Shown one piece after another: positions 2,890 through 36,962 of a DNA stretch of 64,000 nucleotides. How positions within the stretch are numbered: the first letter of the stretch is position 1; each line of letters begins with the position of its first letter. The translations under genes were made by a program, and so were the position numbers. A model generated the notes under the pieces. The model was not told the DNA's origin. It searched no databases and saw nothing but the letters and a program-made list of their open reading frames with translations. The stretch is from Calditrichia bacterium (GTDB taxonomy: Bacteria > Calditrichota > Calditrichia > RBG-13-44-9 > J075), in contig JBOEGD010000027.1 in NCBI GenBank assembly GCA_050633245.1, positions 104,339-168,338 of the forward strand, read 5' to 3'.

Positions 2890-3314
2890 TTTCTGCTATA
2901 TTTGGAAACATTTTTCCCACTAGCTAGGAAAAACGAAACGATAAATGATGAACAGCCGACTCTTTGAAATCAACGTAACTCGTTTAAAAACAGTATTCAA
3001 GAAACAAAAACACCCTAATTGGTATCTTTTTTGTTTTAAAATGAACAATAGTTGTCGATAAGAATACAATAAACAGCACGGGTTGAAATAGCTTTCGAAC
3101 ATTTGTTCCAGCGATCCTCTCTAATCGAAAGCAGCCGCGCAGCAGAATATAGATTCAGGATAATCACAGTCTCTCGTAGACGCGACCTAAAAAACCGCGA
3201 CTCAATATACCTTTTTTACATTTTTAGCATTAATTAAACGCTCAGTGATAGATCTGCTATCAGCTGAAATCGCTGCATATAATACCATTGATATAGATGT
3301 GAGGATCGTATTCA

Positions 3315-6176
3315 ATGACACGAAATGATACACGCTATCCACTACTACTCTGCATTTTTCTAACCGTTCTTATGGCCGCCCCCCCTGTAGCTTCACAGTG
3401 GTTTTATTTCGGCAGGAACAAAGTTCAATACACCGACTTCGATTGGAAAGTGCTGAAGACCAAGCACTTCGACATCTATTATTATGATGAGACCGAAGAG
3501 CTCGCTGAACGCGGTGCAAAGTATGCTGAGGAAAGCTATACTTATCTTGAAAATAAATTCAACTTTGCCGTTACCAGACGCATTCCGCTAATCTTCTATA
3601 GTTCCCACCTACATTTTCAGCAGACGAATATCACCCCCGGACATATCCCGGAAGGGGTTGGAGGATTTTTCGAATTCCTGAAAGGTCGAGTCGTTATTCC
3701 CAGCACCGGCAGCACGAATGCCTTTAAAAAAGTGATTCAGCACGAGCTGGTTCACGTGTTTATGCACTCCAAGGTATATTTCGTAAATAAAGAGCATGGC
3801 CGCTTCGATGGAACCTATCCCCCACTCTGGTTTGTGGAGGGCTTGGCTGAATACTGGTCCAGCACCTGGGATGCGCAGGCAGAAATGATTATCAAAGATG
3901 CGGTGTTACACAATTACCTGGCCCCGCTCTCGCAGATCTGGCGCATTAACGGCACCTTCTCGATGTATAAGGAAGGCCAGGCAATTCTGGAGTATATTGG
4001 TGAACACTACGGTGAAGATAAAATCCTGCTACTGATGGAAAATGTCTGGAAGTACGGAAAATTCTCAGACGTCTGGCACGAGGTGATTGGTAAAAGCTAT
4101 GAAGAATTTGATCAGGAATGGGTCTACCACTTAAAGAAAAAATACTATCCGCTTCTCGCAGATCACGATTTTTCGCGAATCACCTCTGAAACAGTGGTCA
4201 AAAACGGCTACAATTTTAAGCCGGCCTATTACAAAAACTCTGAAGGTGATGACAAGCTGCTCTTCATCGGTAATCGCACCGGTTATACCAACATTTTTAT
4301 GACCGATCTCGATCCGAAAAAGAACAAGAATAAAAAGGGCAAAGAAAAGCTGAAGCAGCTGGTAAAAAGCGGCACCAGCTCAGATTTCGAAGCGTTTCAT
4401 ATTTTCTCGAGTAAGATCGATGTATCAAAAGACGGTCGATTGGCCTTCTCTTCGAAAGCCGGCGAAAAAGACGCACTCTATTTATACAATGTTGAAGATG
4501 AAGAAGTGACGCATAAGCTGGAGTGGAATGATATTGTTGGCATTTCGTCCCCGGCTTTTTCAACGGACAATAAGAGGATTGTTTTCAGCGGGCTGCGATT
4601 TAACGGTAACAAAGATCTGTTTGTTTACGACCTTACCAGTGAAGAGCTAATGCAGCTTACCAACGACTTCTATGATGACAGTGCTCCTTCTTTCTCACCG
4701 GACGGCCGTTATATCACTTTCTCCTCCGATAGGACAACATACGGTGATCAGTGGAGCTACAATGTATTTGTCTACGATTTGGAGACGGGTTTAACCTACT
4801 ACGTTACCTCCAGCCGCAATCAGGACAATACCCCTGTATGGTCACCAGACGGCGGACATATTGCTTTTACATCAGATCGCGATTCTGCACTCAACATTTG
4901 GGTCGCAGACGTATCCGATATATCAGAATGGTCGGCGGAGAGCTATTTAAATATTCCGCTAAAACAGATATCCAAATTTGCCAATGCCGCCTTCGACCCG
5001 GAGTGGGTGAGCGACGATCAACTCTGCTTTGCCGTATATGAGCAAAACCGCTTCGAAATACGCAGCATGAAGAACGTTTCCAAGAAGATTGAAGAACCTT
5101 CTGCCGTTGTTGAGAATAAACCAATGCTTGCTCATTCTCACTGGCAGCCCGGGAAAGTTCCCGGAAACAAAGTTATTTCAAAGCTGAAATACAATAAACG
5201 CTACAATCTGGATGTCGCCCAGACCCAGGTGGACCAAAATCCATTCTGGGGCACCAGTGGTGGTGCTGTTTTCGCCTTTACAGACCTGCTTGGCAACGAT
5301 CAGTATTATTTTCTGCTCTACAACAATGCACAGAGTAGATCAGACTTTCTTAAAAGCACCAATGTCGCAATCTCGAAGGTGTCGCTCGGTAAACGCACCA
5401 ACTATGCCTATGGATTATTTCGCTACGCCGGATTGCGTTTCAACTTTAAGGATGACTTTTTCTTTGAGGATCAGGTTGGTGGCTTCTTTACCATTAGCTA
5501 CCCGTTCTCACATTATCACCGAATGGAGTTCAGCTCTAATCTGGCCTACTCCGACAAGGAGTCGGTAGTTGTCGATCGGCGCTTTGCCTGGCTTAGCTCG
5601 AATTTTGTTTCGCTTATTCACGATAATTCTATCTGGTCTTATACCGGGCCAATCGAAGGAAGTCGCTACAACTTGTCTATCGGTAACACCTATGATGTTA
5701 AAAACTCTAACGTCAATTACTGGACCTTCCTGGCAGATTATCGTCGCTACGACCGACTAACAAGTAAAATAACCTATGCCTCGCGCTATCTTGCGTTACT
5801 GAATGACGGTCGCGAGACGCGCTGGTATTATCTCGGTGGAAGCTGGGATATGCGCGGCTATCGGCGTTTTTCAATTCGTGGCGAAAAGATCGTTTTTACC
5901 TCGCATGAGATTCGCTTTCCTTTCATTGATTATCTCGGTGTAAAGTTTCCCTTTATCTCAATGGTCTTTCCGGGAATTCGCGGTGCCTTATTTCTCGATG
6001 CCGGTAATGCCTGGAACGGCAATGATTATGACGGCTTAGTCGGTAGCTTTGGCTTTGGCGCGCGGGTTAACCTCGGTGGTTTTCTGGTACTTCGTTACGA
6101 TGTCGGTCGTAAAACTGACTTTAATTCCATCAACAACAACTGGTTCACTCAATTCTTTTTCGGATGGGATTTCTAA
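3315..6176 (+). CDS. Omp85/BamA-TamA-family outer-membrane protein with N-terminal zincin (peptidase MA-like) domain and PD40/TolB-like propeller
   Basis: Signal peptide; HELVH...WFVEGLAEY zincin motif; PSFSPDG and PVWSPDG repeats; Omp85 signatures LGGSWDMRGY and GALFLDAGNAW; C-terminal Phe. Confidence 0.85.
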   Translation: MTRNDTRYPLLLCIFLTVLMAAPPVASQWFYFGRNKVQYTDFDWKVLKTKHFDIYYYDETEELAERGAKYAEESYTYLENKFNFAVTRRIPLIFYSSHLHFQQTNITPGHIPEGVGGFFEFLKGRVVIPSTGSTNAFKKVIQHELVHVFMHSKVYFVNKEHGRFDGTYPPLWFVEGLAEYWSSTWDAQAEMIIKDAVLHNYLAPLSQIWRINGTFSMYKEGQAILEYIGEHYGEDKILLLMENVWKYGKFSDVWHEVIGKSYEEFDQEWVYHLKKKYYPLLADHDFSRITSETVVKNGYNFKPAYYKNSEGDDKLLFIGNRTGYTNIFMTDLDPKKNKNKKGKEKLKQLVKSGTSSDFEAFHIFSSKIDVSKDGRLAFSSKAGEKDALYLYNVEDEEVTHKLEWNDIVGISSPAFSTDNKRIVFSGLRFNGNKDLFVYDLTSEELMQLTNDFYDDSAPSFSPDGRYITFSSDRTTYGDQWSYNVFVYDLETGLTYYVTSSRNQDNTPVWSPDGGHIAFTSDRDSALNIWVADVSDISEWSAESYLNIPLKQISKFANAAFDPEWVSDDQLCFAVYEQNRFEIRSMKNVSKKIEEPSAVVENKPMLAHSHWQPGKVPGNKVISKLKYNKRYNLDVAQTQVDQNPFWGTSGGAVFAFTDLLGNDQYYFLLYNNAQSRSDFLKSTNVAISKVSLGKRTNYAYGLFRYAGLRFNFKDDFFFEDQVGGFFTISYPFSHYHRMEFSSNLAYSDKESVVVDRRFAWLSSNFVSLIHDNSIWSYTGPIEGSRYNLSIGNTYDVKNSNVNYWTFLADYRRYDRLTSKITYASRYLALLNDGRETRWYYLGGSWDMRGYRRFSIRGEKIVFTSHEIRFPFIDYLGVKFPFISMVFPGIRGALFLDAGNAWNGNDYDGLVGSFGFGARVNLGGFLVLRYDVGRKTDFNSINNNWFTQFFFGWDF

Positions 6177-28302: not shown

Positions 28303-29021
28303 AAAACGTTCTTTTGATAACTGCGTTTATTTGCTCAATCAACGCCCTTTTGGCTGCAGAAAGCTCATGGATTTCCGAAATTGCCATCGATAGCAGCTTA
28401 ACCGAAATTCAGCAATTCGATCTAGAAACCCTGCGCGAATTTCGGGAAGACAGCGACTTTTTCTATGATCACCAACCTCCTAATACGATCGGATGGTGGG
28501 AAGATTTCAAGCGGTGGTTGTGGCATAATATTTTTCGTTCACTTGGTGTAGTAGACAACCCTTTTCTAAGAAACTTACTTTTCTACGGCTTTATTGCAGC
28601 CGTTTTAGGCTATGCTGCATATAAGATGTCTGAAGGCGATATTCAGAAGCTTTGGAAAGGACGCAGTCGCAAGGTTACCGTAGATTTTCTTGAAGATGAA
28701 AAAGACATCCAGGATCTCGATATCGAGAAGCTGCTAAAGCAGGCATTGCAAGAGAACGATTTGCATCGTGCAACTCGACTGCTCTACCTTAAGGCATTGC
28801 GTCAATTAAGCGAGCGAGCGTTGATTCTCTGGCAGCGCGACAAAACAAACAGCGACTATATCCTCGAGCTATCCGGCAATCCCATTCAAGATAATTTCCG
28901 TGAAATTACCCGGATATTCGACCATGTTTACTATGGCGATTTCAAGCTCCGTATTGCGAGTTTCCCCGAGTTGAGGGCACATTTCGAGCAATTCTATGAA
29001 AGACTCGGAGCACTCAAATGA
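28299..29021 (+). CDS. DUF4129-domain membrane protein
   Basis: Motifs A.RLLYL..L..L, W..DKTN.DY and FDHVYYG. Confidence 0.82.
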   Translation: MKNVLLITAFICSINALLAAESSWISEIAIDSSLTEIQQFDLETLREFREDSDFFYDHQPPNTIGWWEDFKRWLWHNIFRSLGVVDNPFLRNLLFYGFIAAVLGYAAYKMSEGDIQKLWKGRSRKVTVDFLEDEKDIQDLDIEKLLKQALQENDLHRATRLLYLKALRQLSERALILWQRDKTNSDYILELSGNPIQDNFREITRIFDHVYYGDFKLRIASFPELRAHFEQFYERLGALK

Positions 29022-30208
29022 GAAAACACCTGCCTATGCTCATCTTCGGCGTGCTGATACTGGTCTTTTTAACGCTCATTGAAATCAGTCGCCCGCCAGA
29101 ACTCACCTGGCGCGACAGCTTTTCGCGCACCGAAAAAATACCCTACGGCTCCTATCTCGTATTTGAAGGTCTGAAAGATCTTTTTCCAAACCAGGATATA
29201 GAAATTCTGAGTCAACCAATAGCTAAAACTGCTGACAAGGGCTACTATAAAAACAACGACTCATACTACACTTATTTTTTCATCGATTCAGAGTTGGAAA
29301 TGGATCACTATGATATTTCTGACATACTCTGGCTTGCCGCAGAGGGAAATACGGTTTTTCTGGCGGCCAATACCTTTAGCCAGGCCATTATGGATAGCCT
29401 GCACTTCAGTACCAGACCGGCTCTGAATTTTGATGAAGACTCAGCAAAAGTTACTCTTTATGGCGGTAGCTCAGCATCTCACCGGACGTTTATTTACCCT
29501 TATGAATTGGGCAACGAATATTTTCTGGAAGTTGATACTACTCATGTACAAATACTCGGTACCAATTCTGATGGCAGGCCAAACATGCTGCGACAACAAG
29601 TCGGAGATGGAACTGTTTATATAAATTTAGTACCACATGCTTTTACCAACTACTATATGGTAGACAAGACCAACTACGCTTATATCGAGCACGCCTTCTC
29701 CTTCCTCCCCCGACAGCATTTACTTTGGGATGAATATTATAAAGACGTTAGAAGAAACATACCACAAACCTCATTGCGCTTTATCTTAAGTGATCAATCC
29801 CTTCGTTACGCCTACTACCTGATGTGGGCATCTGTTCTACTATTTATGATCTTTCAGGGAAGACGAATTCAGCGAATTATTCCGGTAAAAAAACCACTGG
29901 AAAACACAACGCTGCAGTTTATTGATACGGTCAGTCGCCTCTATTTTCAAAATGGCGATCACAAGAATCTCGCAGAAAAGCAGATAATACATTTCAAAGA
30001 ACACCTGAGACAGCAGTATGGAATAAATACAGACGACATTACTTCTCATAGCATCGAATTGCTAAGTCGGCGCAGTGGCCTTCCACAGCAAGATTTGGAA
30101 AAAACCTTTGCACTTATGAAAAGAATTAGCTCGCAGGAAGCCATTTTAGAGTCCGAGCTTCAAAGTTTGAACAAAGAAATTGAAATCGTTTATCAAATAA
30201 GCAGGTGA
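29018..30208 (+). CDS. DUF4350-domain protein
   Basis: Motifs KIPYG, G.TVFLAA, FTNY, WDEYY and R.QRIIP. Confidence 0.78.
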   Translation: MRKHLPMLIFGVLILVFLTLIEISRPPELTWRDSFSRTEKIPYGSYLVFEGLKDLFPNQDIEILSQPIAKTADKGYYKNNDSYYTYFFIDSELEMDHYDISDILWLAAEGNTVFLAANTFSQAIMDSLHFSTRPALNFDEDSAKVTLYGGSSASHRTFIYPYELGNEYFLEVDTTHVQILGTNSDGRPNMLRQQVGDGTVYINLVPHAFTNYYMVDKTNYAYIEHAFSFLPRQHLLWDEYYKDVRRNIPQTSLRFILSDQSLRYAYYLMWASVLLFMIFQGRRIQRIIPVKKPLENTTLQFIDTVSRLYFQNGDHKNLAEKQIIHFKEHLRQQYGINTDDITSHSIELLSRRSGLPQQDLEKTFALMKRISSQEAILESELQSLNKEIEIVYQISR

Positions 30209-31194
30209 TTAGAATGGAAGAGCAAGGCATGTTTGCGAACAGAGTAGACTTATCGGCCCTTCAACAATCCGTTGAAGAGGTGCGCATAGAAGTGCGAAAA
30301 CTGATAGTCGGCCAGGAGAAGATGGTTCAGTTGATGATTGCCGCGATTCTCGCAGATGGGCATATCCTTCTCGAAGGCGTTCCCGGTGTAGCCAAAACGC
30401 TTGCGGCAAAGCTGCTGGCGCGCACGTTTAAGGCAAACTTTTCGCGTATTCAATTTACACCCGATCTGATGCCTTCGGATGTGGTCGGTACTTCGATTTT
30501 TAATGCAAAGGCAGGGAACTTCGAATTTCGCCAGGGCCCCGTTTTTTCCAATCTGGTGTTAATCGACGAAATAAACCGCGCACCAGCAAAAACTCAGTCT
30601 GCACTATTCGAAGTAATGGAAGAACGCCAAGTTACTGTAGATGGCACGACTTATCAAATGGAAGAGCCCTTTATGGTAATTGCGACGCAAAACCCGATTG
30701 AACAAGAAGGCACCTACCAGCTTCCCGAAGCCCAGCTCGACCGCTTTCTATTTAAGATCGATGTTGGCTACCCCACACTGGAAGAAGAAAAACTTATTCT
30801 GGCAGAATTTCATGCGCGCAAAAACCGCAACGACCTGAGCGTGGTAAAGCAGATTCTGGATCAAAAAAAGATTGCCGCATACAGACAGACCGTCAGCATG
30901 ATTCATATTGGAGACGAGCTGCTGGATTATATTGCACGCATTACCGATCTTTCACGTAACCACAGCTCGTTGTTTCTTGGTGGCTCACCGCGAGCATCTC
31001 TGGCTATTATGACAAGCGCGAAAGCCTTTGCTGCTCTATCGGGCAGAGATTTTGTAACACCCGATGACATCAAAAACGTGGTTACGCCGGTTTTAAGACA
31101 TCGCATCCAGCTCACGCCGGAGCGAGAAATGGAAGGCATGACCACTGACGGCGCCATTAGCCAAATCATCGAAACGGTAGAGGTGCCGCGCTAA
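30205..31194 (+). CDS. MoxR-family AAA+ ATPase
   Basis: Motifs LEGVPGVAKT, RIQFTPDLMPSD, DEINRAPAKTQSAL and ATQNPIEQEGTY.LPEAQLDRF. Confidence 0.96.
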   Translation: MIRMEEQGMFANRVDLSALQQSVEEVRIEVRKLIVGQEKMVQLMIAAILADGHILLEGVPGVAKTLAAKLLARTFKANFSRIQFTPDLMPSDVVGTSIFNAKAGNFEFRQGPVFSNLVLIDEINRAPAKTQSALFEVMEERQVTVDGTTYQMEEPFMVIATQNPIEQEGTYQLPEAQLDRFLFKIDVGYPTLEEEKLILAEFHARKNRNDLSVVKQILDQKKIAAYRQTVSMIHIGDELLDYIARITDLSRNHSSLFLGGSPRASLAIMTSAKAFAALSGRDFVTPDDIKNVVTPVLRHRIQLTPEREMEGMTTDGAISQIIETVEVPR

Positions 31195-31210
31195 GGCGCA
31201 GCAGAGAACC

Positions 31211-32533
31211 ATGCGTAATTTGTCTTTCACCAGTCAGTTTTACCTCTTATGTGGCCTGCTTGTCAGCGGGTTTACACTGGGCTTCGTATGGCCGGTCTTT
31301 TTTAACCTATGCAAACTGGCACTGTATATTTTTGGCGGATTTATTATTCTTGATGCACTCCTACTCTTCCTTTTAGACGGTGGTGTTCGCGCTGAAAGAA
31401 CATGCCCGGAGCGCTTATCGAATGGTGATGCCAACGAAATAAAGATGTCTATTTACAATGACTTTAAGTTTCGCAGCACAATTCGCATTATTGATGAAGT
31501 TCCGGTTCAGCTCCAAATTCGAAATTTCCTAAGAAACACGGTTATAGAAGCGGAATCCAACCAAAGCTTTAGCTATACTTTACGTCCCGTGGAACGCGGT
31601 GAATATCATTTCGGAGACATTATTTGTCTTGCAGAGAGTCCGTTAAAACTCCTGCGAAGACGTTTTGCAGCGCCTGCGGCTCAGATGGTGCCGGTATATC
31701 CCTCGTTCATTCAGATGCGACGCTATGAAATGATGGCAATATCCAATCGCCTCAGCGAGGTTGGCATCAAACGCATTCGCCGTCTTGGTCATACCATGGA
31801 ATTCGATCAGATTCGCGAATATGTGCCGGGAGACGACATACGCACTATCAACTGGCAGGCAACTGCCCGCAAAACCAGTCTGATGGTCAACAGCTATGAA
31901 GATGAGCGTTCACAGCATATTTACAGCGTTATCAATATGGGCCGCGTTATGCAGATGCCCTTCGATGGTCTCAGCCTGCTGGATTATGCAATAAATGCCA
32001 GTCTAGTTATTTCCAATATCGCTATGCGCAAGCAGGATAAAGCGGGCGTCATTACCTTTTCCAACAGGGTAATCGACTTTCTAAAGGCACAGCGGCAGCC
32101 GGCGCATATGGCGCGAATATTAGAACTTCTTTATCGCCAGGAAACCCAATTCAAAGAATCTGATTATGAGGCCCTCTTCCTCAGTATGCTAAAGCGGCTT
32201 ACTCAGAGGAGCTTGATTTTACTATTCAGCAACTTCGAAACGCTCTCCGGCTTACGCAGACAGCTGGCATCGATGCAGCGCCTGGCTCGACACCATGTTT
32301 TGGTGGTGGTCTTTTTCGAGAACATTGAGATGACAAACTTGCTACGGCAGAACGCATCTTCAACAGAAGATATTTATCTTCACACTATCGCGCGTCAATT
32401 CTCCTTCGAAAAGAGGCAGATTGTGAAGGAACTACAGCGTTATGGCATTCACAGCATACTAACTGCACCGGAGAACCTAACGGTTAATGCCCTAAACAAG
32501 TATCTGTATCTCAAAGCGCGCGGCATAATTTAA
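31211..32533 (+). CDS. DUF58-domain (vWA-like) protein, MoxR partner
   Basis: EFDQIREYVPGDDIRTINWQATAR motif. Confidence 0.92.
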   Translation: MRNLSFTSQFYLLCGLLVSGFTLGFVWPVFFNLCKLALYIFGGFIILDALLLFLLDGGVRAERTCPERLSNGDANEIKMSIYNDFKFRSTIRIIDEVPVQLQIRNFLRNTVIEAESNQSFSYTLRPVERGEYHFGDIICLAESPLKLLRRRFAAPAAQMVPVYPSFIQMRRYEMMAISNRLSEVGIKRIRRLGHTMEFDQIREYVPGDDIRTINWQATARKTSLMVNSYEDERSQHIYSVINMGRVMQMPFDGLSLLDYAINASLVISNIAMRKQDKAGVITFSNRVIDFLKAQRQPAHMARILELLYRQETQFKESDYEALFLSMLKRLTQRSLILLFSNFETLSGLRRQLASMQRLARHHVLVVVFFENIEMTNLLRQNASSTEDIYLHTIARQFSFEKRQIVKELQRYGIHSILTAPENLTVNALNKYLYLKARGII

Positions 32534-32544
32534 CGGGAAGAGTA

Positions 32545-33282
32545 ATGGAAACCATTCATATCCAAACCAGCCAGAACGTAACGATTACTTTCGAGCTTGC
32601 GGGAATTGGTGATCGCATTGCAGCAAGCCTTATAGATCTGGCTATCATTATTGGCTATGTTCTATTCGCTTCCACCATTGTTGGTGGAGTAGGCCTTGGC
32701 AGCTGGGGAATTTGGACACTTATTATGCTGCCGATATTTTTTTATGATTTGGTACTTGAAATCGCAATGGAAGGGCAAACGATTGGCAAGCGGGCACGTC
32801 GCATCCGCGTGGCCAATGTGGATGGTTCTGCACCGACATTTACCGCCTATCTATTGCGCTGGATTATTCGCCCGGTTGAAGTGGTTATGGCACTGGGTGT
32901 CGTTGCGATGACAACCATCCTGCTGAATAATCGCGGACAGCGCCTCGGAGACATTGCTGCAAACACGACTGTCATAAAAGTTGGAAAACGGCTAAGCCTG
33001 GAAGACACGCTTTATACAAATATTGAAGAAAACTACGTTCCTGTTTACCGACAGGCTGCTGACTTGGAAGCAAAAGAAGTTGAAATGATAAAGGACGTTC
33101 TCAGAGCAAGACTTTACGCAAGCGATCGTAAGACCTTCGACAAAATTGCCCGAAAAGCTCGGCTTGCCATCGAAGCCAGGCTTAAAATAATACATACTGA
33201 GTCAACTACAACACAACTTGATGTTCCCTTTTTGGAAGCGATATTAAAAGACTATAATGCGATTACCAGTGGTTTAGTGTAA
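32545..33282 (+). CDS. RDD-family membrane protein
   Basis: Motifs GDRIAASLID, GQTIGK and QRLGDIAANT.V. Confidence 0.92.
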   Translation: METIHIQTSQNVTITFELAGIGDRIAASLIDLAIIIGYVLFASTIVGGVGLGSWGIWTLIMLPIFFYDLVLEIAMEGQTIGKRARRIRVANVDGSAPTFTAYLLRWIIRPVEVVMALGVVAMTTILLNNRGQRLGDIAANTTVIKVGKRLSLEDTLYTNIEENYVPVYRQAADLEAKEVEMIKDVLRARLYASDRKTFDKIARKARLAIEARLKIIHTESTTTQLDVPFLEAILKDYNAITSGLV

Positions 33283-33418: not shown

Positions 33419-33481
33419 ATGTGTAAAAGAATCAGGACAGCTAACAGAGTAGCTGAAACACTCAGTCGAAAGCAGTTATGA
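33419..33481 (+). CDS. Putative 20-aa leader peptide (MCKRIRTANRVAETLSRKQL), coupled to the next gene
   Basis: GGAG RBS at 33408-33411, 7 nt before ATG 33419; its TGA (33479-33481) overlaps ATG 33478 (ATGA). Confidence 0.35.
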   Translation: MCKRIRTANRVAETLSRKQL

Positions 33482-34149
33482 AAAAGAACAGTATTTTATT
33501 CTTGCTCACTCCCCTTCTCTTTATATTCTCGCTGGGATTCGGGCAGGAAATTCAGTCTGATTCCACTGTCGTGGAACGTCCAAAATTCTCCATGACACCT
33601 ACATGAGTAGGCTGACCCGGCGAGGGTGCGCCGCTCCGTGGGAGCGGGATTCATACAAAGTGGAGATTTTCAGGACGTTATGTGGATACCGAACTGGATC
33701 GTCCGCAATGGCGTTTTACGGCAAACTATCGTTTGCATAATCGGGTTCAGGTTGGCATTGAAATCAACCCGAAGGCAGAAGAAATCGGTCCTCTGCTTAC
33801 ACTGTTTTTACTTACGGAAACGGAAAAACGCCCGGCAGTATTTTTCGGCACGAGTTCAGATCGAATAGGATCACCGGCTGGTGAGCAGTCATACTTTGCG
33901 ACGGTTAGTAAATATGTACCCTTACTGCATTCTTCCTTATATGGAAGCTTAAATTACTCCGAGTGGGATGAGCAGTTTAACGTGCCATTTGGACTAACAG
34001 TAGAGCTTGGCAAGGGATTTTCATTTCGTCCCATGTACGACGGTAATCGAAGCCATCTCATGCTAAACTATTTCACCACACAATATGGCATCAGCGCCAT
34101 GTATGTCTGGCTCGACACATTGGGTATTTCAGTATCAGTTGGACTATAA
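33478..34149 (+). CDS. Predicted exported di-selenoprotein (223 aa, U43-V-G-U46) with C-terminal beta-barrel-like domain
   Basis: ATG 33478 encodes signal peptide MKKNSILFLLTPLLFIFSLGFG/Q. The frame runs through TGA 33604-33606 and TGA 33613-33615 into the tracked ORF 33682-34149. SECIS-like hairpins lie just downstream of the UGAs. Confidence 0.75.
33611..33647 (+). promoter_or_regulatory. Putative bacterial SECIS element(s)
   Basis: Perfect 7-bp stem CCGCTCC (33631-33637), loop GTG, GGAGCGG (33641-33647). A second, smaller hairpin ACCC-GGCGA-GGGT lies at 33615-33627. Both loops start with G. Confidence 0.6.
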
Positions 34150-34162
34150 TTTGGAGAACGTT

Positions 34163-34846
34163 TTGCGAATATCTTATCTGTTTTTTATGCTCATTTTAGT
34201 CTCTTCTATGGCTCTTTTCTCTCAAGAGACATCACACCCTGAAAAAGCGATGTGCAGCGTATGTGTTTTAAAAGGAGAAAGCGAGGCTGAAAAGGTCAAG
34301 GCTCATTCCAATCACAATGGAACAATGTATTATTTCTGTTCAAAAAATTGCAAGAAAGAATTTGATGCCGCACCAGAAGCCTATCTGCCACCCAAGCTCC
34401 CCCGCCCTGCCCCCGACTTTGCCATCGAAACACTCGACGGCGCAACTGTTTCTCTGAAGGACTTTAAAAACAAACTCGTTCTTCTGGATTTCTGGGCTAC
34501 ATGGTGCAAACCCTGCCTTGAAATCATGCCTGAATTACAGCAGCTGCAGGATACCTACTCAGACAAGGGATTTTCTGTTGCGGGCATATCTATTGATGAG
34601 GATAAAGATTCTATCAAAAAAATTAAGAAGTTCATCAAGAAGCTGAAGGTCTCTTATCCAATCTTTTACGATGCCAAGCAAAAACCGGCATGGAACATGT
34701 TCAACGTTAAGGCCATTCCTGCGCTCTTCCTAATAAACGGAAATGGACAGGTTGTTGCACAGTGGACTGGCAAAGTTGATCACAAGATCATCGAAGCCAA
34801 GGTTGTTGAACAATTAGCTGTAAGTGAAGCTACCGGTTCTAATTAA
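34163..34846 (+). CDS. Exported YHS-domain + TlpA/ResA-like thioredoxin fusion
   Basis: GGAG RBS (34153-34156) before TTG 34163; signal peptide; CSVC...YYFCSKNCKKEF (YHS/TRASH); APDF...LLDFWATWCKPC...IP. Confidence 0.88.
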   Translation: MRISYLFFMLILVSSMALFSQETSHPEKAMCSVCVLKGESEAEKVKAHSNHNGTMYYFCSKNCKKEFDAAPEAYLPPKLPRPAPDFAIETLDGATVSLKDFKNKLVLLDFWATWCKPCLEIMPELQQLQDTYSDKGFSVAGISIDEDKDSIKKIKKFIKKLKVSYPIFYDAKQKPAWNMFNVKAIPALFLINGNGQVVAQWTGKVDHKIIEAKVVEQLAVSEATGSN

Positions 34847-34973: not shown

Positions 34974-35687
34974 ATGAATTTGTTTAGAAAAACCTGCGCC
35001 GAATTTATTGGCACTTTTGCTATTGTGTTTGGTGGTTGCGGCGCCATTGCTGTCGATCAAATTAGCGGTGGGGTTATTGGTCATCTTGGAATAGCAACGA
35101 CCTTTGGGCTTATTGTGATGACGATGGTTTACGCTACCGGTCATATATCCGGCGCGCATCTCAACCCGGCCGTAACACTGGCTTTTTCAGCCACCCGACA
35201 TTTTCCAACCAGAGAGATAGCGCCCTACATTTTTGCTCAATTGCTGGGAGCTGCTGTGGGAAGCGCTCTTCACGCCTATAGTTTACAGGGAATACTGGAA
35301 CTCAGCTCGCCCGGCATGGCCTTGAGTTTTGGCACAACAACCCCCATTGATGGGGTCTTCGCCACTGCTTTCATCTGGGAGTTCGTGCTCACCTTTTTTC
35401 TGATGTTTGTTATTATGGCTGTGGCAACCGATTCCCGCGCAGTCGGTAAAGCAGCTGGCCTGGCAATTGGATCTACGGTATGGTTCTGCGCCTTATTTGG
35501 GGGCCCCATTTCCGGTGCATCGATGAATCCGGCGCGTAGTTTTGGTCCGGCGCTTTTGGCTGGCGACTGGGCAAACTTTGGCGCTTATCTCGCAGGTCCG
35601 ATTCTGGGTGCCCTTGCGGCAGCCTTTATCTACATGTACTTAGCATTTGATGCTGAAAAACAGACTACAGAATCACCCAATGTGTAA
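34974..35687 (+). CDS. MIP-family channel (NIP/AqpN-like aquaporin or aquaglyceroporin)
   Basis: AEFIGTF, HISGAHLNPAVT and GPISGASMNPARSFGP (two NPA motifs). Confidence 0.95.
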   Translation: MNLFRKTCAEFIGTFAIVFGGCGAIAVDQISGGVIGHLGIATTFGLIVMTMVYATGHISGAHLNPAVTLAFSATRHFPTREIAPYIFAQLLGAAVGSALHAYSLQGILELSSPGMALSFGTTTPIDGVFATAFIWEFVLTFFLMFVIMAVATDSRAVGKAAGLAIGSTVWFCALFGGPISGASMNPARSFGPALLAGDWANFGAYLAGPILGALAAAFIYMYLAFDAEKQTTESPNV

Positions 35688-35703
35688 CCATTTGCATAGA
35701 AAG

Positions 35704-35729
35704 ACAAAGCCCGTTTGCACGGGCTTTGT
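35704..35729. terminator. Hairpin/terminator between convergent genes
   Basis: ACAAAGCCCGT, loop TTGC, ACGGGCTTTGT: 11-bp perfect stem. Confidence 0.75.
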
Positions 35730-35783
35730 GCAATTCCAGAGAACCTGACATTTTCACGGATATACGGATGGACGGATACGTGC

Positions 35784-36962
35784 TTAGTATAGTCTCGCCG
35801 CCCGTCTTTTTGGCTCAAACTCTGTAGCTTCTGCCTGCCAGCGCTGCTCCATCTCAGCCAGATCCGCTCCTTTATCAATGGCTTGACGCAACCAGTCGTT
35901 TCCAACCAGAATATCAAACGGCATCAGTTCATATTCATATTCGTATGGCGGGTCGTTCCACTGAAACTTATTTGGATACAATCTCCGCACCTCTTTCAAT
36001 AAGGCAATTGTGGTCAGAAACGGCTTAAAGGTTTTGCGATCGGTTACGTGTAAAAAATAGCCTTCACAAATCTGTTCGGCATGCTTGTGGAAAGTCGGTT
36101 GAAACTGAAGTGGTCGTAGTGCCATGCCCGGTAAATTATGTTTAGCAAGCGCTTCACTCAGCTCTTGCGTATTGAACCAGGGTGCACCGAAGGTTTCGAA
36201 TGGTCGCGTCGTGCCACGTCCCTCAGATAAGTTGGTTGCTTCCAAAAGGCATTTGCCCGGGTATACGACAGTTCCTTCGATTGTAGGTAGATTTGGAGAC
36301 GGCATTGCCCACGGCAAACCGGTGTCTTCAAAATACATGTTCCGATCGTAGTTCTGCATCTCGATGACTCGCAAGTTACAGCGGTAAACATGTTCATTCT
36401 TCAAATACAACGCTACCTCGCCAATGGTCAGGCCATGACGAATTGTCATGGGATATAAACCAACGAAACTACGAAAGTCCTTATTTTTGGCCGGCCCTTC
36501 CACCTGCCCACCAATTGGATTCGGTCTATCCAGCACCACGACTTCTATATCGGTATCATTAGCCACTTCCATACAGTGCGCCAGTGTCCAGATAAACGTA
36601 TAATATTTTGCTCCTACATCCTGCATGTCCACAACGATCGTATCAACACCAGTAAGCATTTCGGCGGTCGGCTTTCTATGTTGTCCATAAAGCGAATAAA
36701 TGGGCACTCCATCGCTCTCGCCGCCACCTTCCCATTCAATCATATTATCCTGGGTATGTCCCCACAACCCGTGCTGTGGTCCAACCAATGCCTTTAAATG
36801 CAGTACGCCACCTTCCTGGGCCTGATAAAAGTAATCTATCGCATGCTTGTGGTCGGATGCGATTGAAGCCTGATTACAAACCAGCATGACATTCCTGCCT
36901 TTGAGAGATTGAAACGATTCAGCAATTAAGCAATCCAATCCACTTGCTACGCGAGTATTCAT
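35784..36962 (-). CDS. namZ: Exo-beta-N-acetylmuramidase NamZ family (DUF1343)
   Basis: Motifs PQHGLWG, YSLYG, DMQDVG..YYT, VLDRPNP, PSPNLP and SEGRGTTRPFE. Confidence 0.9.
   Translation of the reverse strand: MNTRVASGLDCLIAESFQSLKGRNVMLVCNQASIASDHKHAIDYFYQAQEGGVLHLKALVGPQHGLWGHTQDNMIEWEGGGESDGVPIYSLYGQHRKPTAEMLTGVDTIVVDMQDVGAKYYTFIWTLAHCMEVANDTDIEVVVLDRPNPIGGQVEGPAKNKDFRSFVGLYPMTIRHGLTIGEVALYLKNEHVYRCNLRVIEMQNYDRNMYFEDTGLPWAMPSPNLPTIEGTVVYPGKCLLEATNLSEGRGTTRPFETFGAPWFNTQELSEALAKHNLPGMALRPLQFQPTFHKHAEQICEGYFLHVTDRKTFKPFLTTIALLKEVRRLYPNKFQWNDPPYEYEYELMPFDILVGNDWLRQAIDKGADLAEMEQRWQAEATEFEPKRRAARLY

What the first reader, a model, noticed from the sequence alone, without database searches (positions are those of the whole stretch)
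33478..34149. Hidden exported di-selenoprotein with a UxxU motif on a non-thioredoxin, beta-barrel-like scaffold
Seen: the tracked ORF at 33682 lacks a signal peptide. The same frame extends back to ATG 33478, giving MKKNSILFLLTPLLFIFSLGFG|QEIQSDSTVVERPKFSMTPT-*-V-G-*-PGEGAPLRGSG... The only interruptions are two TGA codons (33604 and 33613) in exact CxxC spacing, followed by Pro. The 223-aa product has no Cys. Its C-terminal part shows alternating amphipathic strands (WRFTANY, VQVGIEI, YFATVSK, LGISVSVGL). Established: UGA followed by a 3' hairpin encodes Sec in bacteria; UxxU motifs are rare, the characterised case being thioredoxin-fold SelL, which forms a diselenide. Inference: this is an exported or outer-membrane selenoprotein with a redox or metal-binding diselenide in its N-terminal arm, a family standard pipelines would truncate. 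I do not recognise it as a described family.
Basis: partly seen in the sequence, partly recalled or inferred. Interest (0 to 1): 0.93.

Follow-up and report, generated by a model that had tools for sequence, protein, structure and literature searches.

The report
Outer-membrane barrel protein with two selenocysteines
This gene most likely encodes an exported, barrel-shaped outer-membrane protein whose flexible front arm carries two selenocysteines three residues apart, a widespread family that gene callers cut short and that I did not find in the selenoprotein inventories I checked.

Summary
Window 33478-34149 (+) is one 223-codon frame broken only by TGA at 33604 and 33613.

The selenoprotein reading is strongly supported:
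- Both codons are TGA in 82 of 82 homologous loci that cover the site, from at least eight submitter-labelled phyla.
- Distant homologues carry Cys at both positions, as PTCAGCAGEA.
- A 7-bp hairpin with a G(G/U)G loop lies 31 and 22 nt after the two UGAs. It is kept through compensatory synonymous changes and is absent from the Cys forms.
- The genome has selA, selB, a Sec-containing selD and tRNA-Sec.

Residues 60-223 fold as a roughly 12-stranded outer-membrane beta-barrel. A signal peptide precedes it, and the family usually ends in Phe.

The gene pairs with a YHS/TRASH plus TlpA-like thioredoxin gene in 60 of 84 loci. Cys forms fuse YHS domains to the barrel and keep the thioredoxin next door.

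I infer a selenol/diselenide arm, kept reduced by the thioredoxin partner, that handles a soft metal at the outer membrane. No Pfam or NCBIfam model matches, and none of the 119 families in a 2026 inventory fits. Sec insertion and the function are untested experimentally.

The parts
33478..34149 (+). Full gene of the di-Sec barrel protein: 223 sense codons plus the TAA stop, with two UGA codons read as Sec.
   Evidence: Homologues cover the full length, with 2 in-frame TGA in G007, G013 and G005 and in 82 of 82 loci.
33478..33543 (+). Predicted signal peptide, MKKNSILFLLTPLLFIFSLGFG. It has no lipobox Cys.
   Evidence: Read from the sequence. 80 of 82 loci have an in-frame start followed by a hydrophobic h-region upstream of TGA1 (own heuristic; SignalP was not run).
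33604..33606 (+). UGA 1, codon 43, read as Sec.
   Evidence: TGA in 82 of 82 loci. TGC or TGT in 9 of 9 Cys-form loci.
33613..33615 (+). UGA 2, codon 46, read as Sec.
   Evidence: TGA in 82 of 82 loci. TGC or TGT in 9 of 9 Cys-form loci.
33631..33647 (+). SECIS-like hairpin: 7-bp stem (33631-33637 with 33641-33647) and GUG loop (33638-33640). The loop starts 31 nt after UGA1 and 22 nt after UGA2.
   Evidence: RNAalifold consensus on 45 sequences. 98.1% of cells are paired, against 30-70% when the partner is slid. Two pairs show compensatory changes at synonymous third positions: G-C to A-U in 5 sequences and C-G to U-A in 9. Cys forms pair only 3-5 of 7 at these columns.
33655..34146 (+). Beta-barrel domain, residues about 60-223, with about 12 strands.
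   Evidence: In the AF2 model the ten-residue blocks from residue 61 have pLDDT 73-93, mostly about 90. Foldseek against the PDB finds FapF, designed transmembrane barrels, KdgM, NanC and OmpU.
34151..34846 (+). Partner gene beginning 2 nt after the stop. It encodes a signal peptide, a YHS/TRASH-type four-Cys domain (C35, C38, C63, C67) and a TlpA/ResA-like thioredoxin domain with WCKPC.
   Evidence: Pfam YHS, AhpC-TSA, Redoxin and Thioredoxin_8. NCBIfam ResA and TlpA matches fall below the family cut-offs. Translation. Adjacent in 60 of 84 homologous loci.

Best explanation
SHOWN BY COMPUTATION. The locus encodes one 223-residue exported protein in which both UGA codons (33604, 33613) are decoded as selenocysteine. 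One SECIS-type hairpin at 33631-33647 directs both events. After signal-peptide cleavage the protein has a flexible arm of about 38 residues carrying Sec-x-x-Sec (PTUVGUPGEG), followed by a small outer-membrane beta-barrel of about 12 strands. It forms a conserved module with the next gene, a periplasmic YHS/TRASH metal-binding domain fused to a TlpA-like thiol:disulfide reductase.

INFERRED. Both termini of an even-stranded outer-membrane barrel face the periplasm, so the arm should sit at the periplasmic mouth or inside the pore.
1. Its two selenols cycle between a diselenide and a diselenol.
2. The TlpA-like domain keeps them reduced.
3. In the reduced state the pair binds a soft metal ion. 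Cu(I) is my first guess; Hg, Ag, Cd, Zn or Fe are alternatives.
4. The ion is exchanged with the YHS domain and passed to or from the barrel channel.

I put the selenoprotein and barrel core at about 0.9. The metal hand-off mechanism stands at about 0.45. The figure below is for the whole statement.
For: Recoding
- TGA,TGA is kept in 82 of 82 loci that cover the site, across loci labelled Latescibacterota (19), Poribacteria (19), Acidobacteriota lineages (9-10), Eisenbacteria (9), Gemmatimonadota (6), Krumholzibacteriia (3), Calditrichia, Planctomycetota and others.
- Both flanks are conserved at the protein level.
- In alignment columns 13-45 after UGA1, the freely variable columns are 15, 18, 21..., 45. 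All are third positions of the UGA frame.
- Both positions are Cys in distant full-length homologues, encoded by TGC or TGT in 9 of 9 loci.
- The hairpin meets the four bSECIS constraints quoted in PMC13188914: 3-nt loop, 7-bp stem, G then G/U at the start of the loop, spacing of 31 and 22 nt, and consensus energy -12.05 kcal/mol. It also shows covariation.
- The genome's own selD UGA is followed by a comparable 7-bp stem with a GGUC loop.
- selA, selB, selD and tRNA-Sec are present. selB is over its cut-off in 5 of 5 other carrier genomes tested.
- TGA is an ordinary stop in these genomes. It ends 9 of 36 long ORFs in the window and ends this very gene in 39 of 81 loci.

Fold
- AF2 gives pLDDT 78.6 and pTM 0.71, with the barrel at about 90.
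- All strong Foldseek hits are transmembrane beta-barrels.
- The C-terminal residue is Phe in 75 of 81 loci.

Partnership
- The YHS-Trx gene is adjacent in 60 of 84 loci. That is 60 of 65 outside Poribacteria, and 3 of the 5 misses are cut by a contig end.
- Cys forms occur as a YHS-YHS-barrel fusion followed by a 160-aa TlpA-like gene (L107, L112, L113), or as a barrel followed by a double-YHS protein (L105, L106).
- In an all-against-all clustering of neighbouring ORFs, only these two gene families recur across the labelled phyla. A third large cluster (49 loci) looked like antisense ORFs of lineage-specific genes, judged from one locus.

Metal hint
- YHS is a presumed metal-binding domain. 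YHS occurs together with thioredoxins in the FetMP-FetABCDEF iron system (passages of PMC10783030).
- Some Cys forms have His/Asp-rich inserts.
- One Cys-form locus has metallothionein-like Cys-rich ORFs just upstream (L108).
Against: - There is no experimental evidence of Se incorporation, and I could obtain no expression data (look-up of sequencing runs was unreachable).
- The window's hairpin region alone is not more stable than shuffled sequence (z -0.95 to -1.07). The case for the hairpin therefore rests on conservation and covariation.
- The covariation involves only 2 of 7 pairs. Related sequences can inflate such counts.
- The arm is modelled with low confidence (pLDDT 44-56), so its position is inference.
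- The barrel orientation and the strand count come from a model only.
- No metal is identified. The 19 Poribacteria loci lack the YHS-Trx neighbour, so the partnership is not universal.
- The window protein ends in Leu, not Phe.
- The wider window neighbours (MoxR, DUF58, RDD, MIP, NamZ) are not conserved with the gene and say nothing about function.
Confidence: 0.6

Rival explanations
1. Pure redox relay with no metal. The UxxU arm is a diselenide/selenol catalytic site at the outer membrane, for example reducing peroxides, polysulfides or disulfides of envelope or incoming substrates. The TlpA-like partner recycles it. The YHS domain is structural or regulatory.
For: The review states that many uncharacterised prokaryotic selenoproteins are homologous to thiol oxidoreductases or carry redox motifs such as UxxC and CxxU. 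A CxxC-type spacing and a dedicated thioredoxin-like neighbour are what a redox couple looks like. The thioredoxin gene persists next to the Cys-form fusions.
Against: YHS/TRASH domains are linked to the barrel both by neighbourhood and by fusion, and they are presumed metal binders. The arm is not on a thioredoxin fold. The 19 Poribacteria loci show no reductase gene within the fetched flanks.
Confidence: 0.25
2. Chalcogen handling. The arm carries or passes selenium or sulfur species (selenide, polysulfide, Se0) through the barrel. Selenotrisulfide-like intermediates form on the Sec pair.
For: The reviews list YHS-domain selenoproteins and YedE/YeeE-type transporters among known selenoproteins. 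The arm sits at a channel.
Against: No sulfur- or selenium-metabolism gene recurs in the fetched flanks. Nothing in the data points to chalcogens specifically.
Confidence: 0.08
3. The TGAs are real stops. The locus is a small 42-aa ORF plus a separate 155-aa ORF, or a pseudogene.
For: Public gene callers annotate only the downstream part. The single-sequence fold of the hairpin region is not exceptional.
Against: Both TGAs and both flanks are conserved in 82 of 82 loci across labelled phyla. Third-position periodicity lies in the TGA frame. Homologues align Cys at both sites. The truncated ORF would lack the signal peptide and the first barrel strand, residues 62-69. The annotated starts differ between homologues.
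Confidence: 0.02
4. TGA is read as Trp or another standard residue, through code 4 or near-cognate read-through, giving a WxxW protein.
For: Three database proteins read PTW..WPGEG (P0013, P0066, P0193).
Against: P0066 corresponds to locus L093, whose DNA has TGA at both sites, so the W comes from the gene caller's code. TGA ends 9 of 36 long ORFs in the window and ends this gene itself in 39 of 81 loci. No locus has TGG at either site (0 of 82). The distant forms have Cys, not Trp.
Confidence: 0.02

Closest known systems
SelL and the Prx-like UxxU selenoproteins
   Same: Two Sec residues in U-x-x-U spacing, expected to form a diselenide. The GOS study reports UxxU sequences in a Prx-like 2 family (passage of PMC2398784).
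   Different: Those are thioredoxin/peroxiredoxin folds. Here there is no thioredoxin-type Pfam match, and the body is a transmembrane beta-barrel with the motif on a flexible N-terminal arm.
Metal-binding UxxU double selenoprotein (putative mercuric reductase, NF041115) and MbdU (NF045648)
   Same: Double-Sec motifs interpreted as metal-binding sites (Table 1 of PMC13188914).
   Different: P0001 matches no NCBIfam model at E <= 1. The architecture and cellular location differ.
Outer-membrane barrel selenoproteins: GSU2204/MtrB-PioB family (NF041027) and FCYXU-type TonB-dependent receptor (NF049945)
   Same: Predicted selenoproteins built on outer-membrane beta-barrels (Table 1).
   Different: Those are large barrels with one Sec each and belong to other families, and there is no HMM match to them. 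This is a 160-residue barrel with two Sec on an N-terminal arm.
Small 12-stranded outer-membrane barrels: FapF, KdgM, NanC
   Same: Best structural matches: 5o68 E 1.8e-5; 4fqe, 4pr7 and 2wjq TMq 0.46-0.49. FapF also has an N-terminal segment ahead of the barrel; that point is recalled, not tested.
   Different: Sequence identity is 8-14%. There is no Pfam match and no PDB sequence relative at E <= 10. None of these carries a Cys or Sec pair, as far as I recall.
TlpA-type periplasmic reductases, and YHS with thioredoxins in FetMP-FetABCDEF
   Same: A membrane- or periplasm-located TlpA/ResA-like thioredoxin paired with Cys-motif metal-handling partners. FetA has a YHS domain, and FetE and FetF are thioredoxins (passages of PMC10783030). 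TlpA's role in reducing copper-site proteins is recalled.
   Different: Those systems act at the inner membrane or in the periplasm and contain no barrel and no Sec. The neighbour here scores below the curated cut-offs for ResA and TlpA.

Membership tests
Bacterial selenoprotein gene (SelB/SECIS-dependent UGA recoding) | In-frame UGA conserved among orthologues, with conserved flanks on both sides | tested here: met
   82 of 82 loci have TGA,TGA. Flanks PT-U-xx-U-PGEGAPLRGSG are conserved. Third-position periodicity lies in the UGA frame.
Bacterial selenoprotein gene (SelB/SECIS-dependent UGA recoding) | Homologues with Cys aligned to the UGA | tested here: met
   PTCAGCAGEA in P0150, P0168, P0174, P0164, P0226, P0169, P0167, P0163 and P0212. 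TGC or TGT at both sites in 9 of 9 loci.
Bacterial selenoprotein gene (SelB/SECIS-dependent UGA recoding) | bSECIS stem-loop: 3-9 nt loop, 4-16 bp stem, G in the first two loop positions, 16-37 nt from the UGA, MFE <= -7.5 (criteria quoted from PMC13188914) | tested here: met
   Loop G(G/U)G, 7-bp stem, spacing 31 and 22 nt, consensus energy -12.05 kcal/mol, with covariation. Checked by hand against the criteria; bSECISearch itself was not run.
Bacterial selenoprotein gene (SelB/SECIS-dependent UGA recoding) | selA, selB, selD and tRNA-Sec in the genome | tested here: met
   All four are over their cut-offs in G000. selB is present in 5 of 5 other carriers.
Bacterial selenoprotein gene (SelB/SECIS-dependent UGA recoding) | Selenium demonstrated in the protein | not testable with these tools
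   Needs 75Se labelling or mass spectrometry.
SelL / thioredoxin-fold UxxU selenoproteins | Thioredoxin or peroxiredoxin fold carrying the motif | tested here: not met
   No Pfam match. AF2 gives a beta-barrel and Foldseek finds only transmembrane barrels.
Outer-membrane beta-barrel protein | Cleavable signal peptide | tested here: inconclusive
   The N-terminus is a K-rich n-region, then a hydrophobic h-region, then G-F-G | Q. 80 of 82 homologues have the same layout by my heuristic. SignalP was not run.
Outer-membrane beta-barrel protein | Closed antiparallel transmembrane barrel | tested here: met
   The model has barrel pLDDT of about 90 and about 12 strands. The best PDB matches are FapF, designed transmembrane barrels, KdgM, NanC and OmpU. 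This is a prediction only.
Outer-membrane beta-barrel protein | C-terminal aromatic residue (beta-signal; the rule is recalled) | tested here: met
   Phe is last in 75 of 81 loci. The window's copy ends in Leu.
KdgM/NanC porin family | Match to the family's sequence model | tested here: not met
   No Pfam family at E <= 0.01. The resemblance is in fold only.
Known double-Sec or barrel selenoprotein models (NF041115, NF045648, NF041027, NF049945) | Match to the NCBIfam model | tested here: not met
   No NCBIfam family at E <= 1 for P0001.

The most novel reading that the evidence does not exclude
This is the first selenium-based gate of an outer-membrane channel. An obligately di-Sec arm captures a soft metal, or switches the pore by forming a diselenide. 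It is serviced by its own periplasmic YHS-thioredoxin partner. The three parts would form a previously unrecognised envelope system, shared laterally among many uncultured phyla, including dominant sponge symbionts.
Probability: 0.3. Interest if true: 0.85.

Novelty: new variant of a known kind. Interest (0 to 1): 0.72.

Why it matters
- It would add a widespread family to the bacterial selenoproteome. One search found 577 database clusters, and 173 genome loci encode a relative. The 2026 inventory holds 119 families, most of them thioredoxin-like and with a single Sec.
- All 81 members of the Sec clade in the tree keep both Sec residues, with no Cys reversal, although a Cys sister group exists. 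That is unusual and suggests selenium is chemically required here, not optional.
- The two Sec residues sit in the cell envelope on a membrane barrel, where almost nothing is known about selenium chemistry.
- The finding exposes a systematic annotation error. Public calls either cut off the first 60-70 residues or translate TGA as Trp.
- It gives a testable three-part system: barrel, YHS domain and TlpA-like reductase.

Tried and rejected
- Single-sequence folding of the region after the UGAs gave z-scores of only -1.07 and -0.95. It is uninformative on its own in this G+C-rich stretch, so I used the alignment instead.
- Pfam and NCBIfam scans of the protein found nothing. A profile search of PDB sequences found nothing at E <= 10.
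- Rfam gave one chance-level match upstream: sRNA162, E 0.34, 21 bits against a 78-bit threshold.
- The promoter and terminator scan found nothing above the shuffled expectation.
- No tRNA gene lies in the window.
- The wider window neighbours (DUF4350, MoxR, DUF58, RDD, MIP, NamZ) do not travel with the gene. tblastn found only DUF58, in 2 of 84 loci, so I dropped them as functional clues.
- A 49-locus ORF cluster looked like antisense ORFs of lineage-specific genes. In L026 it lies opposite an ankyrin-repeat gene.
- The 'Trp homologue' lead was rejected as a code-4 gene-calling artefact.
- P0133 reads PACVGWPGEG.
- I did not run complex prediction. The Sec form is not a table-11 product, the Cys-form alignments are shallow, and a reductase with its substrate is a poor case for that test.
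- Literature. Five searches and passages or tables of PMC13188914 (section 7, parts 1 and 2 of 3, plus further passages), PMC9312934, PMC2398784, PMC12013277, PMC13326102 and PMC10783030 showed no matching family. Supplements are closed. The candidate lists of deep-Sep, BSepDB and the groundwater-MAG study cited in PMC13188914 could therefore hold it unseen.
Full report
**1. The observation**

Window 33478-34149 on the + strand reads as one frame from ATG to TAA.
- The only interruptions are TGA at 33604 and 33613. With these read as U, the product is 223 residues: MKKNSILFLLTPLLFIFSLGFG|QEIQSDSTVVERPKFSMTPT-U-VG-U-PGEGAPLRGSG...
- The product contains no Cys.
- Under table 11 the frame falls into a 42-aa ORF and a 155-aa GTG ORF at 33682.

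**2. Is UGA recoded here?**

*Machinery.* The window's genome is G000 (6.35 Mb, 59 contigs, 97% complete).
- selA and selB lie side by side on contig 20.
- selD itself has one in-frame TGA.
- tRNA-Sec scores 71.2 bits against a gathering score of 47.

*Orthologues.* Three relatives in the same family (G007, G013, G005) have the gene with two in-frame TGAs.
- A scan of one genome per species found 173 stretches that encode a relative; the best 80 were kept.
- Of the 85 loci then in hand (L020-L104), 82 contain the site. All 82 read TGA,TGA within P-[TS]-U-x-x-U-P-G-E-G-[AS]-P. The other three do not show the site.
- The submitters' labels span Latescibacterota (19), Poribacteria (19), Eisenbacteria (9), Acidobacteriota lineages (9 by my reading of the titles, 10 by the NCBI ranks), Gemmatimonadota (6), Krumholzibacteriia (3), and one each of Calditrichia, Planctomycetota and Deferribacteres. 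Eleven carry no phylum label.
- 80 of 82 loci have an in-frame start codon and a hydrophobic segment upstream of the first TGA. One is cut by its contig end. One (L045) has an upstream stop.

*Coding frame.* In the 45-sequence DNA alignment that starts at UGA1, the freely variable columns between 13 and 45 are 15, 18, 21, 24, 27, 30, 33, 36, 39, 42 and 45. Every one is a third position in the UGA frame.

*Cys pairs.* A search of 1.84 billion representative proteins gave 166 hits.
- The distant full-length hits carry Cys at both positions...APTCAGCAGEAR....
- In nine metagenome loci both codons are TGC or TGT.

*TGA is otherwise a stop.*
- It ends 9 of 36 long ORFs in the window.
- It is this gene's own stop in 39 of 81 loci.
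- No locus has TGG at either site.
- Three database proteins show W-x-x-W. P0066 matches L093 over the stretch printed, and L093's DNA has TGA,TGA. The W therefore reflects a gene caller using a TGA=Trp table.

**3. The SECIS candidate**

RNAalifold on the 45 sequences finds a 7-bp stem, CCGCUCC / GGAGCGG, with loop G(G/U)G at columns 28-44. That is window 33631-33647.
- 98.1% of cells are paired, against 30-70% when the 3' arm is slid by 1-3 columns.
- Two pairs change on both sides: G-C to A-U in 5 sequences and C-G to U-A in 9. The four columns involved are the synonymous third positions of the Pro, Leu, Gly and Ser codons.
- Of 500 column shuffles, none reached the observed paired fraction or the observed covariation score. 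The tool warns that related sequences can do this without any structure.
- The hairpin satisfies the published bacterial SECIS model as quoted in PMC13188914: 3-nt loop (allowed 3-9), 7-bp stem (allowed 4-16), G then G/U opening the loop, and 31 and 22 nt between the two UGAs and the loop (allowed 16-37).
- One element could therefore serve both codons.
- The genome's own selD has a 7-bp stem with a GGUC loop 17 nt after its UGA.
- The nine Cys-form loci pair only 3-5 of 7 at the equivalent columns.
- Caveat: the window sequence alone does not fold better than shuffles.
- Part of the amino-acid conservation of APLRGSG probably reflects this RNA constraint.

**4. The protein**

An AlphaFold2 model built on a 36-row alignment has mean pLDDT 78.6 and pTM 0.71.
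- Residues 60-223 score about 90 and form about 12 antiparallel strands.
- Residues 22-57, the arm with the two Sec, score below 60.
- Foldseek against the PDB returns only transmembrane beta-barrels at the top: FapF (E 1.8e-5), designed 10- and 12-stranded barrels, KdgM, NanC and OmpU.
- The family ends in Phe in 75 of 81 loci. This fits the usual C-terminal signal of outer-membrane proteins (recalled).
- There is no Pfam, NCBIfam or PDB sequence match.
- The annotated 155-aa ORF would lack both the signal peptide and the first strand (residues 62-69).

**5. The module**

The next gene (34151-34846) starts 2 nt after the stop.
- It encodes a signal peptide, a four-Cys YHS/TRASH-type domain (C-x2-C-x24-C-x3-C) and a TlpA/ResA-like thioredoxin with WCKPC.
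- tblastn finds this gene beside the barrel gene in 60 of 84 loci.
- The 24 misses are all 19 Poribacteria loci, three loci cut by contig ends (L024, L037, L060), and L075 and L092.
- In an all-against-all clustering of flanking ORFs, only the barrel and this partner recur across the labelled phyla.
- The Cys forms rearrange the same three parts:
  - a double-YHS-barrel fusion followed by a 160-aa TlpA-like gene (L107, L112, L113; P0169 and P0167 have two YHS hits);
  - a barrel followed by a double-YHS protein (L105, L106);
  - a YHS protein upstream of the barrel (L108).
- Neighbourhood plus fusion is good evidence that barrel, YHS and thioredoxin work together.

**6. Mechanism (inferred)**

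With an even number of strands, both ends of an outer-membrane barrel face the periplasm. That is where the YHS-thioredoxin protein would also be. My proposal has three steps:
1. The Sec pair alternates between diselenide and diselenol.
2. The TlpA-like domain reduces it.
3. The diselenol binds a soft metal that is exchanged with the YHS domain and passes through, or is kept out of, the barrel.

The hints for a metal are weak:
- the presumed metal-binding nature of YHS;
- the co-occurrence of YHS and thioredoxins in an iron-uptake cluster (passages of PMC10783030);
- His/Asp-rich inserts in some Cys forms;
- metallothionein-like ORFs beside one Cys-form locus.

A metal-free redox role is the main rival. 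The data do not decide between them.

**7. Evolution**

I built a quick maximum-likelihood tree of 90 rows. I left out L021, which duplicates L053, and the three loci without the site.
- The 81 Sec forms fall on one side of a branch (SH-aLRT 97) and eight Cys forms on the other (99).
- P0133 sits as a long-branch sister of the Sec clade.
- No Sec-clade member has reverted to Cys.
- The window's copy groups with rows labelled Latescibacterota and Gemmatimonadota. Its best identity there is 79%, against 61-62% to G007 and G013 of its own family. Within its own phylum only 4 of 86 genomes have the gene. This suggests lateral spread.

**8. Known or new?**

- The 119-family table of a 2026 review (PMC13188914, section 7, parts 1 and 2 read) has no entry that fits.
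- The UxxU entries in that table are a Prx-like family, a mercuric-reductase-like metal binder (NF041115) and FmdB.
- Its barrel entries are the GSU2204/MtrB-PioB family and a TonB-dependent receptor.
- None of these NCBIfam models matches the protein.
- Passages of the 2022 review, the GOS study, deep-Sep and BSepDB gave nothing either.
- I therefore rate it as an apparently undescribed selenoprotein family. Within the known kind 'bacterial selenoprotein' it is a new variant, with a new scaffold, an obligate double Sec and a new three-part system.

**9. Verdict**

- Real feature: yes.
- Selenoprotein: about 0.9, on purely computational evidence.
- Outer-membrane barrel: about 0.85.
- Functional link to the YHS-TlpA-like partner: about 0.8.
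- Metal hand-off mechanism: about 0.45.
- Interest: 0.72.

Noticed in passing
G000 contig 14 (locus L009); not in the window: The genome's selD is itself a selenoprotein (context ...KTCGUAAKISP...). Its UGA is followed 17 nt later by a GGUC loop closed by a 7-bp stem. This makes a useful in-genome reference for SECIS shape.
   Followed up: partly
P0013, P0066, P0193 (database proteins); L093: Public protein collections hold full-length versions of this family with Trp at both Sec positions. The matching DNA (L093 for P0066) has TGA, so some pipelines called these short contigs with a TGA=Trp table.
   Followed up: yes
L045 (Latescibacterota-labelled chromosome), around 3067-3131: This copy looks degraded. 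An in-frame stop lies 19 codons upstream of TGA1. The sequence reads RESS instead of RGSG, two hairpin pairs are broken, and LDT replaces LGT in the most conserved block. It may be a decaying gene.
   Followed up: no
window 33478-34149 compared with L022, L053, L024: The window's copy is closer to copies labelled Latescibacterota or Gemmatimonadota (up to 79% identity) than to those of its own family (61-62% for G007 and G013). Only 4 of 86 genomes of its phylum have the gene. This suggests lateral transfer.
   Followed up: partly
L108 261-1158 (and the near-identical L109): Two secreted, extremely Cys-rich metallothionein-like ORFs (runs of CKCC and CCxGC) lie just upstream of the YHS protein and the Cys-form barrel gene.
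   Followed up: no
L112 275-3318: An OmpR-type response regulator, a histidine kinase and a Gly/Pro-rich protein that looks to me like a CpxP/Spy-type LTxxQ protein (recalled resemblance, no family scan) lie beside a YHS-barrel fusion. This may be an envelope-stress or metal-sensing context.
   Followed up: no
P0133: An intermediate-looking homologue reads PACVGWPGEG. If its W is another TGA artefact, it would be a C-x-x-U form that sits as sister to the Sec clade. Its DNA could not be fetched.
   Followed up: no
window 29018-33282 and 34974-36962: The module is flanked by a DUF4350 / MoxR AAA+ / DUF58 / RDD cluster upstream, and by a MIP-family channel and NamZ (on the opposite strand) downstream. 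None of these is conserved next to the gene elsewhere.
   Followed up: partly
L102 around 3001-3684: One Poribacteria copy has an 11-residue insertion rich in Glu, Ser, Asn and His before the last strand of the barrel.
   Followed up: no
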